From the IMG/VR virus record IMGVR_UViG_3300017942_000001: DNA of 64,000 nucleotides; one strand, given 5' to 3'. Below are positions 31,565-36,575 of the stretch, piece by piece (within the stretch, counting starts at the first letter, position 1; every line of letters begins with the position of its first letter). The notes below the pieces were generated by a model, which did no database searches, had not been told where the DNA came from, and worked only from the letters and a program-made list of their open reading frames with translations. The stretch comes from a virus. A program made the translations under genes and the position numbers.

Positions 31565-31930
31565 GTCTCGGCTCAGTGGAGCGCCGAGCGGCTCTCGCTA
31601 ATTTCGCAGTCTCGAACCAGTAGTCTCGGCTCGTGGAGCGCCGAGCAACTCTCGCCACAGCCCGCGGTTCTGCCATGAGGTCTCGGCTCGTGGAGCGCCG
31701 AGCAGCTCTCGCTACCTTGAAGGAGCGGTCCGCGGATCGCGGATCGCGGCGGTCTCGACATCTCGGCTCGTGGAGCGCCGAGCAGCTCTCGCGCGCTCGC
31801 GCGCTCTCACTGATCTATTGAATTCCTCCATGTCTCAGCTCAATAGAGTGCCGAGCAACTCTGGCGCAGTCGCCGCGGGCCGCGGGTTGTGCGCATCTCG
31901 GCTCGTAGAGCGCCGAGCAGCTCTCGATCA
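31565..31930 (-). CRISPR. degenerate trailer segment of the array (6 repeats)
   Basis: Repeats at 31565, 31623, 31680, 31760, 31832, 31895 with substitutions; spacers 21-44 nt; further remnants near 31430-31480. Confidence 0.85.
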
Positions 31931-32251
31931 TCCGCGGGGCTGCGGGCTGCGCCGTTTTTTTCGTCGTGCCTCCGAAGCTTTGGTCTCGAGCTTGCGCGCG
32001 ACCGACGCGGCGAACCGCGAGCCATCCTCGTCACCGACGAGCTTGAGCAGATGCGTCAGGTTGTCGATCAGCTCCATCGCGTCCGTGAACAACGCCGCGT
32101 CGTCGTATCGCGACAGCTGCATCTGGAGAAAAAGTTTTCGCGCGCGGGCAGCGTGCCAATTGGGCGGAGAAGCTGGCAGCCGGCCGAGTAGTAGATACTC
32201 CGAGTCTTTCATCAGGCGCTCGGCTTGGCGTCGCGTGCTCGCGTACTTCAT
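31928..32251 (-). CDS. hypothetical 107-aa protein inserted in the CRISPR array
   Basis: ORF fills most of a 391-nt gap between repeats; TATAAA 7 nt upstream of ATG; lower GC. Confidence 0.55.
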   Translation of the reverse strand: MKYASTRRQAERLMKDSEYLLLGRLPASPPNWHAARARKLFLQMQLSRYDDAALFTDAMELIDNLTHLLKLVGDEDGSRFAASVARKLETKASEARRKKRRSPQPRG

Positions 32252-32321
32252 GTGTGCGTTTATACAATGGGGCCGGCTGTTGGCTGACCGTCGGCGAGCG
32301 GTGAGTACGTTTACGTCTAAG

Positions 32322-34624: not shown

Positions 34625-34661
34625 TGCATCATTCAACTATTCAGTTGTCACGCGACCTTCG

Positions 34662-36575
34662 CTACGGCGCTTCGAGCGCCTCGGCCTCCGGCCGCTTCCA
34701 CCGCGTCCTTCGCAGCCGCTCCGACCGCGACTCCTTGCGCTCCGCCGGATCATCGTCGCGAGCGCCCCTGGGCGGCGGCCAGTCACCCGATTGTTCGAGA
34801 TCTCGCCACTGGACGATCAGGTTCCTGCACGCGTTCTGGTCCTGGTCCCACGTCGCGCCGCACGCCGAGCACGTGTGCTCCCTGCGCAGGGCGTGGTCCC
34901 AGTCGTCGACCTGACCGCACGCGCGCGCGGCCCCCGTGGCCTCGTCGAGGACGGTCGCGGCGCAGGTGCGGGTCACGTCGACCGACGACAGCTCGAGGAC
35001 GCGCGCCGGCCCGAAGGCGTTGAGGAGCGCTCCGCGCAGCTCGGATCCGGCGGCGTGGCGCTGGTTCCGCTTGGCCGCGGGCCGCTCGACGCGCGTCTCC
35101 TCCGGCTTGGGCGACTGCTGGAACTCGCGCAGGTCGAAGTCGTCGACGACGAGCGTCCGGTAGCGCGCGGACAACTCCGCGGCGAGCACGCGGTAGCGCT
35201 CGCGGCGATCGCGCAGGCCGCCGCCGCGCATGCCCGACTCGTAGCGCTCGAGGTGCTCGTCGCGGTAGCGCCAGTCCTCCAGGATCTCGTAGCCGTCGTC
35301 GTCACCGGCGAAGCGCTGGGCGCGCCACGCGAACGCCAGCGCGCGGAACCGCGCCGCGGATCGCCACTGCGCGACGTGCCAGGACCACACGCGCGAGGCG
35401 TTCGGATCTTGCCTGGGCTGGCGCGACAGGATCGTCCGATCGACGATCCAGGCCGGCAGATCTGCCTCGTGCGCGCGAAGCCACGTGGTGATCGCGGCGC
35501 GCATCTGGTCGAGGTCCTTGTCGCGCTGCGACCGGATGGCCTCCGACTTCTCGACGCGGTCGATCGTGGAGCTCGGCACGGCAATCTCGCGATCGACGGC
35601 GTCGTCGCTCGACAGCACGTAGCCGGCGCGGACGTGCCCGACGTGGTCGTCCTTGAGCTTGCACCAGCCGAGGTTCAGCGCCACCGCGCCGGAGGCCGGG
35701 ATCGGCCCGCCGGTCGCCGCGTCGTCCGGGATCTCCAGCGTGAGCAGGAGCCTCCAGTCCCACCGGCGGCAGTCGCGGCGGCGCCGCGACACTGTCGCCA
35801 CCTTGACGCGGGAGCCGGGCGGGATCGGCCGGTGCAGGATCATCGGCCACTCGGCCCAGATCGCGCGTCCCTTCTCCGTCGACTGCACGCGCAGGCGCAG
35901 CGTCGTGCGGCTCGCGAGCCGCCGGACGCCGCGGGGCTTGCCGGGGTCGTGGGCGTCCGGCGACACGGGGGCGACCTGGAGCTGGGTGTCCGATCCGAAC
36001 ATCTCGGCGGTGGAGATCCCTCCCTGGAGCTGGACGGACACGCGCCCCTCGCCGGTCCAGCGCTTGAAGTTCGGCGGCGCCTTGCTCTTCTTGGCGGCGT
36101 CGACGGCCTGCTCTTGCAGAAGATACGATCCCCAGTACGCACCGCACGCCGCGCGCGCCTTGCGAACGCGATCGGCCGCGCGCGCGTCGGCCGCGTCGAT
36201 CGCCGCGGCGATCGCGACGTCGGTCTTGATCGCGTCCCGCGCGGCCTTGAGGGCTTCGCGCGCCGCCTTGAGCTGGGCGGCGAGGTCCTTGACCCGCGCG
36301 CGCATCTGGGCGGTCTCGGACCGGTCGCGCGTCCTCTTCCGCGAGGCCTTGATCGCCAGCCGCGCCTCGTCGCGCTGCTTGGCGAGGTCGGAGACCTGCG
36401 CGGCGAGGCCCTCGGTGTCCGGGTGACCGACCAAGATCAGCGAGATCTCCCTCCGTCGCTCGCGCTCGATCTCGACGAGCTGGTTGTAGTAGCGGTGCGC
36501 GGCGCGCATCTGGTCGTCGACGAGCTTCTCGTTCGACGTCGGATCGAGCAGTCCGTACTCGTAGTTCTTGATCAT
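34662..36575 (-). CDS. cas12m: type V-M CRISPR effector, Cas12m-like (non-canonical RuvC), 637 aa
   Basis: YWGSY, RWTGEGRVSVQLQ, ILHRPIP, RuvC-I VALNLGW (N for D), QWRSAARF-AL-W, RuvC-II LVVDD, zinc finger CSACG, RuvC-III WDQD all correspond to MmCas12m motifs as recalled; array directly downstream. Confidence 0.88.
   Translation of the reverse strand: MIKNYEYGLLDPTSNEKLVDDQMRAAHRYYNQLVEIERERRREISLILVGHPDTEGLAAQVSDLAKQRDEARLAIKASRKRTRDRSETAQMRARVKDLAAQLKAAREALKAARDAIKTDVAIAAAIDAADARAADRVRKARAACGAYWGSYLLQEQAVDAAKKSKAPPNFKRWTGEGRVSVQLQGGISTAEMFGSDTQLQVAPVSPDAHDPGKPRGVRRLASRTTLRLRVQSTEKGRAIWAEWPMILHRPIPPGSRVKVATVSRRRRDCRRWDWRLLLTLEIPDDAATGGPIPASGAVALNLGWCKLKDDHVGHVRAGYVLSSDDAVDREIAVPSSTIDRVEKSEAIRSQRDKDLDQMRAAITTWLRAHEADLPAWIVDRTILSRQPRQDPNASRVWSWHVAQWRSAARFRALAFAWRAQRFAGDDDGYEILEDWRYRDEHLERYESGMRGGGLRDRRERYRVLAAELSARYRTLVVDDFDLREFQQSPKPEETRVERPAAKRNQRHAAGSELRGALLNAFGPARVLELSSVDVTRTCAATVLDEATGAARACGQVDDWDHALRREHTCSACGATWDQDQNACRNLIVQWRDLEQSGDWPPPRGARDDDPAERKESRSERLRRTRWKRPEAEALEAP

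What the first reader, a model, noticed from the sequence alone, without database searches (positions are those of the whole stretch)
31565..36575. Apparently phage-borne type V-M (Cas12m) system without an adaptation module
Seen: a 637-aa effector with Cas12m motifs (RuvC-I D to N, RuvC-II DD), a 36-repeat array 37 nt downstream, phage-like ORFs on both flanks, and no cas1/cas2/cas4 in 64 kb. Established: characterised Cas12m proteins (Mycolicibacterium mucogenicum, Gordonia otitidis) process crRNA and bind but do not cut DNA, acting as transcriptional roadblocks. Inference: a phage using programmable silencing against competitors or host genes, with spacers acquired by host Cas1-Cas2 in trans. 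This copy also has a 14-residue spacing in the first Cys pair of the zinc finger and a basic C-terminal tail.
Basis: partly seen in the sequence, partly recalled or inferred. Interest (0 to 1): 0.8.

Follow-up and report, generated by a model that had tools for sequence, protein, structure and literature searches.

The report
Cas12m CRISPR locus on large phage-like element
This is a genuine Cas12m (type V-M) CRISPR system, a DNA-binding, non-cutting kind, with an unusually long but decaying 36-repeat array. It sits on a fragment of a large, probably viral, wetland element, and such phage-borne, adaptation-less Cas12m systems are already described, so it is a new member of a known kind.

Summary
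A 637-aa gene (34662-36575, minus strand) is a full-length Cas12m by sequence, profile, fold and defence-system HMM. Its RuvC triad is N301-D478-D577, a published variant of the family. Thirty-seven nt downstream lie exactly 36 repeats (34624 to 31565). The 36-nt repeat forms the covariation-supported pseudoknot and carries the terminal AC of the solved Cas12m2 crRNA.

No Cas1, Cas2 or Cas4 was found among the window ORFs I scanned, nor within 10 kb of four relatives. A complete 210-kb IMG/VR phage that carries a distant Cas12m has no Cas1 anywhere.

Lack of adaptation genes is normal for subtype V-M and for phage CRISPR loci. Phage-borne Cas12m is already published (2020, 2025, a 2026 preprint), sits unannotated in a 2016 GenBank phage, and was noted in at least 38 other genomes of this scan. 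Viral identity is likely (about 0.7) but unproven, because no capsid or terminase gene was seen. No spacer target and no host array with this repeat were found.

Two points are new. The array is six times the phage median. Its spacers carry array-specific 7-8-nt tandem duplications that explain their irregular lengths.

The parts
34662..36575 (-). cas12m effector gene, 637 aa, with RuvC triad N301/D478/D577 and a CCCC zinc finger (C538, C553, C569, C572) carrying a 12-aa insertion in the first Cys pair
   Evidence: Sequence against solved structures: phmmer gives 23vw Cas12m E 1.4e-70. The clade profile gives 23vw 2.8e-135, 8hhl 9e-72 and 8pm4 4e-66, while TnpB and Cas12f reach only 4e-8 or worse and match the C-terminus alone. 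PADLOC Cas12u1 scores 1.6e-88 over the full length. The AF2 model has pLDDT 92.7, and Foldseek gives 8hhl TM 0.75/0.80.
34625..34661 (-). Leader: 37 nt between the stop codon and the first repeat, holding the conserved motif GTGACAACTGAATAGTTGAATGATGCA
   Evidence: The motif is conserved next to the first repeat in L002, L021 and L022. Their effectors are only 52-73% identical, and L022 has a different repeat sequence.
31565..34624 (-). CRISPR array of 36 repeats (consensus GTAGCGAGAGCTGCTCGGCGCTCCACGAGCCGAGAC). Spacers are modally 36-38 nt but range from 19 to 71 nt. Repeats far from the effector are degenerate.
   Evidence: Array and repeat calls: 2, 9, 95. The pseudoknot with helices 8-11:20-23 and 14-19:29-34 is 98.8% paired, 6 of 10 pairs show compensatory change, and 0 of 500 shuffles reach this.
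31928..32251 (-). 107-aa ORF inside a 391-nt non-repeat gap of the array (between the repeats at 32322-32357 and 31895-31930)
   Evidence: ORF and gap. It has no Pfam or PHROG family. Its only database match is a 64-residue gene call from this same contig (100% identical over 60% of the ORF), so no homologue was found elsewhere. The stretch is identical in contigs of three wetland runs.
36592..36816 (+). Small divergent gene (74 aa) next to the cas12m start, a possible regulator
   Evidence: A copy 73% identical sits at the same position next to cas12m in L002. It has no Pfam or PHROG hit, so the ribbon-helix-helix (RHH) assignment by another first-reader note is not confirmed.

Best explanation
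Identity (shown). [quoted passage not shown] It is carried by a fragment of a large element, roughly 200-260 kb by comparison with relatives, that is rich in genes of no known family. The element comes from wetland metagenomes and is most likely a jumbo phage.

Mechanism (inferred from characterised Cas12m):
- The array is transcribed from the end next to the effector.
- Cas12m binds the 36-nt repeat as a pseudoknotted 5' handle and processes the transcript into crRNAs.
- Only about the first 17-20 nt of each spacer serve as guide.
- The complex binds PAM-flanked double-stranded DNA tightly without cutting it, which blocks transcription or replication of the target.
- Likely targets are competing mobile elements or host genes of similar G+C. 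Spacers are 64% GC.

Spacer acquisition. New spacers of 36-38 nt enter at the leader end through an integrase that is not encoded nearby. It could come from the host, from elsewhere on the element, or from an ancestor.

State of this copy. The array looks old rather than active: distal repeats are degenerate, a 391-nt insertion carries an ORF, and more than half of the spacers have been lengthened after acquisition by 7-8-nt tandem duplications. The guide uses only the spacer's 5' part, so these changes are largely tolerated.
For: Family membership:
- Full-length matches to solved Cas12m structures, with TnpB and Cas12f far behind.
- PADLOC Cas12u1 at 1.6e-88.
- Fold match TM 0.75-0.80 to 8hhl and 8pm4, against 0.37 or less (query-normalised) for Cas12f and TnpB.
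- The clade triad is N-D-D in 62 of 81 members. N-D-D variants bind but do not cut (PMC11013384).
- Arginines in the REC coiled coil are conserved: R79, R85, R92 and R106 at 90% or more. This parallels the Arg-rich pocket of Cas12m2 (PMC10442227).

Guide RNA:
- The repeat pseudoknot is supported by covariation.
- Its geometry matches Cas12m2: a 6-bp helix ending at -8..-3, then A(-2)C(-1).

Array polarity and turnover:
- The leader motif is conserved. Degenerate repeats lie at the far end.
- Relatives have regular arrays. L021 has 40 repeats, all but the first two matching the consensus exactly, and spacers of 35-40 nt. L002 has 37 repeats with spacers mostly 36-39 nt.
- The window and L002 share no spacers, so the arrays have turned over completely.

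Large mobile element:
- The window shares about 10 genes each with 20-kb samples of the 217-, 243- and 259-kb contigs that carry cas12m homologues.
- Genes are very short and mostly without known family.
- It carries 3 tRNA genes, a Pth2-like gene, RtcB with an intein-sized insertion, RNA-ligase-like and MazG-like genes, and PHROG hits.
- A complete 210-kb phage with direct terminal repeats and GenBank phage KX853510.1 carry Cas12m with an array and, in the first case, no Cas1.

Post-acquisition duplications:
- 15 tandem duplications of 7-8 nt lie in the 3.1-kb array, against 14 in the other 60.9 kb, where the rate is at chance level.
- In the window, 10 of 15 spacers longer than 40 nt carry one, and 0 of 12 of the shorter ones do.
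- Across the family, 20 of 178 spacers carry one, against 0.46 expected.
Against: - No capsid, portal or terminase gene was seen in the window or in related loci, so 'phage' is an inference.
- No protospacer was found, so the target, the PAM and current activity are unknown.
- No transcription or binding data exist.
- The irregular array and the inserted ORF could mean the system is decaying.
- Only 64 kb of a 70-kb contig, from an element that may be 200 kb or larger, could be searched for adaptation genes. Small ORFs were not all scanned.
Confidence: 0.75

Rival explanations
1. The carrier is not a virus but a megaplasmid or another large non-viral mobile element, or an island in a chromosome. 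The Cas12m system defends that element or its host.
For: No virion hallmark gene appeared in any scanned ORF of the window or in about 100 kb of related loci. Related contigs carry integrases, a DDE transposase and a TnpB. Al-Shayeb et al. note that some large putative plasmids carry similar translation-related genes (PMC7162821). The repeat family and two conserved neighbouring proteins have no relatives in IMG/VR. Cas12m homologues also occur on two PLSDB plasmids.
Against: Mean gene length is about 140 aa, in long co-directional overlapping runs. tRNA genes, a Pth2-like gene, RtcB and PHROG-family hits are present. No replication, partition or conjugation family was hit. The repeat is absent from 185,579 cellular species genomes. 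An AcrVA2-like gene lies in the relative L025. More distant Cas12m loci do sit in bona fide phages.
Confidence: 0.22
2. The locus is a decaying relic. The effector gene is intact, but the array no longer acquires spacers and many guides are crippled, so the system has little present function.
For: Spacer lengths run from 19 to 71 nt. Ten repeats have 2 or more mismatches to the consensus, and three further copies are so degenerate that only the covariance model finds them. A 391-nt insertion interrupts the array. Some duplications start as early as spacer position 9-11, inside the guide region. Close relatives have clean, regular arrays.
Against: The effector ORF is intact and all clade-invariant residues are present. 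The leader and the 20 repeats nearest it are well conserved. The two leader-proximal spacers have the canonical 36-37 nt. The first nine spacers are identical in an independent ENA assembly, and the flanks are identical in three runs.
Confidence: 0.15
3. Cas12m here acts mainly on the element's own genes or transcripts, through lone repeat 'handles' or self-matching spacers, as proposed for other phages in this scan, rather than on foreign DNA.
For: Earlier notes from this scan report dispersed Cas12m repeats at gene starts and self-matching spacers in other phages. Related metagenome contigs hold lone repeats: one in L005, and one directly before an ATG in L006 and L009.
Against: In this window a covariance-model search with filters off finds no repeat outside the array. 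The best outside hit scores 21.6 bits and lies inside cas12m itself. A Hamming scan also finds none. No spacer matches the window over 18 nt or more.
Confidence: 0.07
4. The protein is a TnpB-type transposon nuclease with an omega-RNA, or an active dsDNA-cutting Cas12.
For: Pfam and NCBIfam detect only the C-terminal TNB zinc ribbon that is shared with TnpB. D478 and D577 are retained.
Against: NCBIfam TnpB models score 10-12 bits against cut-offs of 100-425. Full-length matches and the fold go to Cas12m. The REC2 coiled-coil insertion is present. A 36-repeat array lies adjacent. RuvC-I is Asn, and tested N-D-D, H-D-D and even D-E-D Cas12m proteins do not cut (PMC11013384).
Confidence: 0.03

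Closest known systems
PmCas12m (PDB 23vw; preprint 10.64898/2026.03.26.714355), the closest solved relative
   Same: The match runs the full length: phmmer E 1.4e-70 and profile E 2.8e-135. It has the same domain order and C-terminal zinc ribbon. It is reported to bind dsDNA without cutting.
   Different: PmCas12m has Asp at RuvC-I (AIDLGW) and Glu-Glu at RuvC-II, where this protein has Asn and Asp-Asp. This protein is 60 aa longer, with a 12-aa zinc-finger insertion and a 40-aa basic tail.
MmCas12m2 (8hhl, 8hio) and GoCas12m (8pm4), the characterised type V-M effectors
   Same: The fold matches at TM 0.74-0.80. Shared features are the REC2 coiled coil with conserved arginines, a non-canonical RuvC triad, and a 36-nt repeat forming a pseudoknot with terminal AC. 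The loci lack adaptation genes.
   Different: Their triad is H-D-D and this one is N-D-D. MmCas12m2 has an HCCC zinc finger and this protein has CCCC. They are bacterial (Mycolicibacterium, Gordonia), whereas this one sits on a large phage-like element. Structure-based sequence identity is only 21-23%.
N-D-D Cas12m variants tested by Bigelyte et al. 2024 (PMC11013384)
   Same: They have the same RuvC residue pattern and were reported as PAM-dependent binders without dsDNA cleavage.
   Different: I could not retrieve their sequences to measure relatedness.
Phage-encoded Cas12m loci: MvCas12m of myxophage MV-1 (preprint 10.64898/2026.09.14.751636), Virus Rctr197k (KX853510.1), IMG/VR UViG_3300037851_001030
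   Same: Each has a Cas12m gene followed by an array on a large phage genome with no adaptation genes.
   Different: MvCas12m is 610 aa with a D-E-D triad and 8 spacers. The IMG/VR phage has 6 repeats and a 31%-identical effector, and Rctr197k is 34% identical. The window has 36 repeats, an N-D-D triad and a different repeat sequence, and its viral nature is unproven.
CRISPR systems of huge phages (Al-Shayeb et al. 2020, PMC7162821)
   Same: These include type V-U variants. They lack Cas1, Cas2 and Cas4 and are proposed to target competing phages or host genes.
   Different: Phage arrays there have a median of 6 repeats, against 36 here. Relatives of this locus have 37-40.

Membership tests
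Type V-M / Cas12m (formerly V-U1) | Full-length sequence similarity to Cas12m that exceeds similarity to TnpB or other Cas12 subtypes | tested here: met
   Against solved structures the profile gives 23vw 2.8e-135, 8hhl 9e-72, 8pm4 4e-66 and 23vu 9e-52 over about 550 positions. The best TnpB-like hit is 4e-8 and covers the C-terminus only. PADLOC Cas12u1 scores 1.6e-88.
Type V-M / Cas12m (formerly V-U1) | Bilobed fold with WED, REC1, a coiled-coil REC2 ('roof') insertion, RuvC and a TNB zinc finger | tested here: met
   The AF2 model has pLDDT 92.7 and long helices spanning residues 16-143. Foldseek gives TM 0.75/0.80 to 8hhl and 0.74/0.78 to 8pm4, against a query-normalised TM of 0.37 or less for Cas12f and TnpB.
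Type V-M / Cas12m (formerly V-U1) | A RuvC site of a type documented in the family (D-E-D, H-D-D or N-D-D), none of which cuts dsDNA | tested here: met
   The residues are N301, D478 and D577. N-D-D occurs in 62 of 81 clade members. The published variants are listed in PMC11013384.
Type V-M / Cas12m (formerly V-U1) | Arg-rich DNA-binding cluster in REC | tested here: inconclusive
   R40 and R141 are invariant, and R38, R41, R79, R85, R92 and R106 are at least 90% conserved. Residue-by-residue equivalence to Mm R111, R112, R126 and R173 was not established.
Type V-M / Cas12m (formerly V-U1) | Adjacent CRISPR array whose roughly 36-nt repeat forms a pseudoknotted 5' handle, with a single crRNA and no tracrRNA | tested here: met
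   There are 36 repeats. Covariation supports two interleaved helices. The geometry and the terminal AC match Cas12m2. A tracrRNA was not specifically sought, but no anti-repeat copy exists elsewhere in the window on either strand.
Type V-M / Cas12m (formerly V-U1) | PAM-dependent dsDNA binding without cleavage, giving transcriptional silencing | not testable with these tools
   This needs a PAM screen, binding and cleavage assays, and a reporter silencing assay.
Type V-M / Cas12m (formerly V-U1) | No adaptation module in the locus | tested here: met
   No Cas1, Cas2 or Cas4 hit appeared in the scanned window ORFs. None is listed within 10 kb of four relatives. There is no Cas1 in the complete phage G001. 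ORFs under about 150 aa were not all scanned.
Bacteriophage genome (Caudoviricetes) | Major capsid protein, portal and large terminase genes | tested here: inconclusive
   None was found among window ORFs of 150 aa or more or in related loci. Only about a quarter to a third of the presumed genome was visible.
Bacteriophage genome (Caudoviricetes) | Phage-type gene content and architecture | tested here: met
   PHROG hits: phrog_1075 at 1e-134, phrog_8593 at 6e-27 and phrog_9147 at 8e-17. There are three tRNA genes. Genes average about 140 aa in co-directional overlapping runs and most have no known family. This is suggestive but not defining.
TnpB / IS200-IS605 omega-RNA nuclease | Match to TnpB models over the whole protein, with transposon ends and an omega-RNA instead of an array | tested here: not met
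   NF038281 scores 12.1 bits against a cut-off of 425, and NF040570 scores 10.6 against 100, both over the zinc ribbon only. A 36-repeat array is present.

The most novel reading that the evidence does not exclude
The 7-9-nt tandem duplications may be a mechanistic scar of Cas12m biology rather than neutral slippage. They are confined to spacers, recur in at least five independent arrays of this repeat family, and account for nearly all over-long spacers. One possibility is replication stalling and template slippage at R-loops that the binding-only effector forms on its own array. Another is a spacer maintenance or acquisition process that does not use Cas1-Cas2. If either holds, these large arrays on elements without adaptation genes would reveal how CRISPR arrays evolve when the effector binds but never cuts.
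Probability: 0.12. Interest if true: 0.65.

Novelty: new member of a known kind. Interest (0 to 1): 0.3.

Why it matters
The locus adds a well-documented Cas12m of the N-D-D subclass from a family of 200-260-kb wetland and soil elements that is absent from IMG/VR and from cellular reference genomes.

The arrays in this family have 36-40 repeats, far longer than usual for phages. Someone must therefore be supplying spacer integration to elements that carry no integrase near the locus. That question could be tested with the complete genomes.

Comparing regular arrays (L021, L002) with decayed ones (this window) gives a natural series for how arrays age when only the first 17-20 nt of a spacer are under selection.

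For tool builders it offers one more compact, naturally nuclease-dead DNA binder with a defined handle. It does not change what is known about the family.

Tried and rejected
Whole genome and rest of the element:
- No whole genome is held for this window, so the rest of the element could not be searched.

Searches for the repeat:
- The repeat, exact or degenerate, was not found in 185,579 species genomes or in IMG/VR.
- Five JGI metagenome contigs carry it.

Searches for spacer targets:
- The whole array against GenBank phages gave only chance-level hits, E 0.08-0.9.
- All spacers of nine arrays were compared with the window, the whole G001 genome and all fetched loci. Nothing better than 19-25 nt with 1-2 mismatches turned up, which is chance level.

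Sequencing runs:
- Laying contigs of four wetland runs confirmed the flanks, the effector gene and the ORF inside the array.
- The contigs break at the repeats, so they say nothing about array variation. One 'joint' is a repeat collapse.
- No RNA holder is listed.

Viral identity:
- Megablast of 24 kb against GenBank phages found no match.
- Two conserved neighbouring proteins have no relatives in IMG/VR.
- Walking along the related contigs L024, L025 and L026 found no virion genes.
- The record name 'Dg2-pDmB' could not be traced in the literature.

Ideas considered and set aside:
- Solitary repeats in the window: none found.
- Duplications as fill-in repair scars of staggered Cas12 cuts. I judged this unlikely, because their start positions spread from spacer position 7 to 39 instead of clustering at a cut site, and the N-D-D site is expected to be inactive.
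- A genome-wide slippage bias cannot be excluded. Frameshifting 7-8-nt duplications would be purged from the coding DNA that makes up almost all of the rest of the window. In-frame 9- and 12-nt tandem duplications are enriched there.
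Full report
**1. Observation**

The minus strand carries an ORF whose best-supported start is the ATG at 36575 and whose stop is at 34662, giving 637 aa. Eighty homologues align from this Met, with the consensus MxxRVYEYGLL.

Downstream on the same strand, after 37 nt, begins a repeat array. A covariance model built from eight repeat variants of the family finds exactly 36 copies, all on the minus strand, from 34624 to 31565 (E <= 2e-4). 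It finds nothing convincing elsewhere in the 64 kb.

**2. The protein**

Pfam and NCBIfam see only the C-terminal TNB zinc ribbon, far below the TnpB cut-offs. Several tests place the protein in Cas12m:
- Against solved structures, the best phmmer hit is a Cas12m (23vw) at E 1.4e-70 over residues 6-588.
- A profile of the clade matches every solved Cas12m over its full length: 23vw 2.8e-135, 8hhl and 8hio about 1e-71, 8pm4 4e-66, 23vu 9e-52.
- In the same search TnpB, Fanzor and Cas12f reach only 4e-8 or worse and cover only the last 130 residues or so.
- The PADLOC Cas12u1 (V-U1) model scores 1.6e-88 end to end.
- An AlphaFold2 model (pLDDT 92.7, pTM 0.85) superposes on Cas12m2 (8hhl) at TM 0.75/0.80 and on GoCas12m (8pm4) at 0.74/0.78.
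- The next folds, Cas12f and TnpB, reach a query-normalised TM of 0.37 or less.
- The long helices at residues 16-143 correspond to the REC coiled-coil insertion that distinguishes Cas12m from TnpB (PMC10442227, PMC11013384).

The RuvC positions are N301, D478 and D577. N-D-D is the rule in this clade, in 62 of 81 members; 10 are D-E-D. Bigelyte et al. list D-E-D, H-D-D and N-D-D as the three natural Cas12m configurations, and none of those they tested cut dsDNA.

The zinc finger is CCCC (C538, C553, C569, C572). The basic tail is a clade-wide extension of about 40 residues with low model confidence.

**3. The guide RNA**

The 36-nt repeat has two interleaved helices, columns 8-11 with 20-23 and 14-19 with 29-34. 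Across eight repeat variants, 98.8% of cells pair and 6 of 10 pairs show changes on both sides. No shuffle (0 of 500) and no slid register comes close.

The solved Cas12m2 crRNA has a 36-nt scaffold with a 6-bp helix between -22..-17 and -8..-3, followed by A(-2)C(-1). Here the 3' strand sits at exactly -8..-3, and the terminal AC is invariant. Cas12m2 forms only a 17-bp heteroduplex, so only the first 17-20 nt of each spacer should matter.

**4. Polarity and state of the array**

A motif of about 30 nt, GTGACAACTGAATAGTTGAAyGATGCA, lies directly before the first repeat in the window, L002, L021 and L022. The L022 repeat has a different sequence, and the effectors are only 52-73% identical. 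I read this motif as the leader. The end next to the effector is therefore the young end, which fits the degenerate repeats at the far end.

Relatives have clean arrays:
- L021 has 40 repeats, all but the first two matching the consensus exactly, and spacers of 35-40 nt.
- L002 has 37 repeats with spacers mostly 36-39 nt.
- The window and L002 share no spacers, so the arrays have turned over completely.

The window's array is different. Only 9 of 27 well-delimited spacers are 36-38 nt long and the rest run from 19 to 71 nt. Ten repeats have 2 or more mismatches to the consensus, and three further copies are so degenerate that only the covariance model finds them. A 391-nt gap holds a 107-aa ORF with no homologue outside this contig.

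The extra spacer length is explained by tandem duplications:
- 10 of 15 spacers longer than 40 nt contain an exact 7- or 8-nt tandem duplication, and 0 of 12 shorter ones do.
- Such duplications occur 15 times in the 3.1-kb array, against 14 times in the other 60.9 kb, where the rate equals chance.
- They recur in the related arrays L007, L008, L009 and L021. In all, 20 of 178 spacers carry one, against 0.46 expected.
- The two youngest spacers here are canonical, and in the relatives the odd spacers lie in older parts of the array. I therefore read the duplications as changes made after acquisition.

Why units of 7-8 nt dominate is unexplained. Neutral slippage that is visible only in non-coding DNA is the economical reading.

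**5. Adaptation genes**

No Cas1, Cas2 or Cas4 hit came from any scanned ORF. The scanned set includes every coding-like ORF of 250 aa or more and the locus neighbours. None is listed within 10 kb of the homologues on the 217-, 259-, 243- and 201-kb contigs. The complete 210-kb IMG/VR phage G001, which has direct terminal repeats, has no Cas1 at all.

This is what the literature describes for V-U1/V-M loci and for nearly all phage CRISPR systems. The regular 36-38-nt spacers and the exact repeat duplication in relatives imply an integrase with a ruler acting somewhere. The idea that a host array with the same repeat supplies it finds no support, because the repeat is absent from 185,579 species genomes. 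The host may simply be unsequenced.

**6. The carrier**

The window comes from a 70-kb metagenome contig. Its DNA is present in three wetland runs.

Points in favour of a phage:
- The window has 3 tRNA genes, a Pth2-like gene, RtcB with an intein-sized insertion, and RNA-ligase-like, MazG-like and truncated class II synthetase-like genes.
- A few ORFs hit PHROG families, and most ORFs have no known family.
- Gene calls on the identical ENA contig show 24 consecutive overlapping genes of about 140 aa.
- The window shares about ten genes each, at 40-80% identity and in shuffled order, with 20-kb samples of the 217-, 243- and 259-kb contigs that carry cas12m relatives. It is therefore a fragment of the same family of large elements.
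- One relative encodes an AcrVA2-like protein.

Points against, or leaving it open:
- No capsid, portal or terminase gene was seen anywhere.
- The family is absent from IMG/VR.

I put 'jumbo phage' at about 0.7 and a non-viral large element at about 0.2.

**7. What is already known**

- Type V-U variants were reported in huge phages lacking Cas1, Cas2 and Cas4 in 2020.
- Twenty-four virus-encoded Cas12m-like proteins were reported from landfills in 2025.
- A September 2026 preprint describes MvCas12m with 8 spacers in a complete myxophage and calls it the first phage Cas12m.
- GenBank phage KX853510.1 (Virus Rctr197k, 197 kb) carries a 34%-identical Cas12m annotated as 'similar to transposase', beside an annotated CRISPR region.
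- This scan has itself noted phage Cas12m in at least 38 other genomes. I tested two of those leads here, dispersed lone repeats and self-targeting spacers. Neither applies to this window.

**8. Verdict**

This is a real, complete type V-M locus of the N-D-D subclass on a large, probably viral element. It is a new member of a known kind. Three features go beyond the ordinary:
- the array length, 36 repeats against a phage median of 6;
- the conserved leader;
- the spacer-specific 7-8-nt duplications.

Targets, PAM, activity and the source of spacer integration remain open.

Noticed in passing
window 31565-34624 (spacers); also L007:1-2200, L008, L009 and L021:12340-12606 and 15120-15162: Exact 7-9-nt tandem duplications are confined to CRISPR spacers. 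There are 15 in the 3.1-kb array and 14 in the other 60.9 kb. Across the repeat family, 20 of 178 spacers carry one, against 0.46 expected. They account for nearly all over-long spacers, units of 7 nt dominate, and start positions range from 7 to 39. The cause is unknown.
   Followed up: partly
window 31928-32251 (-): A 107-aa ORF lies in a 391-nt non-repeat gap inside the array. It has no Pfam or PHROG family and no homologue outside this contig among 5.8 billion proteins. The stretch is identical in contigs of three wetland runs.
   Followed up: partly
window 34625-34661; L002:11985-12014; L021:12160-12191; L022:11950-11982: A leader motif of about 30 nt (GTGACAACTGAATAGTTGAA.GATGCA) is conserved directly upstream of the first repeat. 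It persists across effectors only 52-73% identical and across different repeat sequences. It could be a promoter or a site that anchors spacer integration.
   Followed up: partly
L006 (minus strand, revcomp position 1039) and L009 (minus strand, revcomp position 2800); L005:2539-2574: Lone copies of the repeat lie outside arrays in related metagenome contigs. One sits immediately before an ATG. This resembles the 'Cas12m handle on phage mRNAs' idea noted elsewhere in this scan. No such copy exists in this window.
   Followed up: partly
L023 = KX853510.1 108507-118159 (Virus Rctr197k): A 197-kb GenBank Caudoviricetes genome carries a Cas12m homologue (34% identity, 92% coverage) annotated only as 'similar to transposase', next to an annotated 1.5-kb CRISPR region.
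   Followed up: partly
L025:7483-8610: An AcrVA2-like (PF26125) gene lies about 12 kb from the cas12m locus on the related 217-kb contig. tblastn finds no homologue in the window.
   Followed up: partly
L024:16479-17777: A canonical IS605 OrfB/TnpB gene (432 aa) and a tyrosine integrase lie about 15 kb upstream of cas12m on the related contig. TnpB and Cas12m therefore coexist on one element.
   Followed up: no
window 54374-56680 (+): The RtcB RNA ligase hit is split into residues 3-322 and 669-768, with an insertion of about 350 residues between them. The size fits an intein.
   Followed up: no
window 5881-6217 (-) and 6292-6849 (-): Three tRNA genes lie next to a Pth2-like gene, and ARAGORN calls one of them with a 4-base anticodon (gatg). 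Apart from Cas12m, the Pth2-like gene is the only window protein with a homologue in the complete phage G001.
   Followed up: no
L009 (both strands); L022:13200-13700 and 17400-18200: Related elements carry two or three arrays. L009 has two arrays in opposite orientation with distinct repeat variants. L021 spacers 33 and 34, and L009 spacers 9 and 10, are identical neighbours, so arrays also grow by internal duplication.
   Followed up: no
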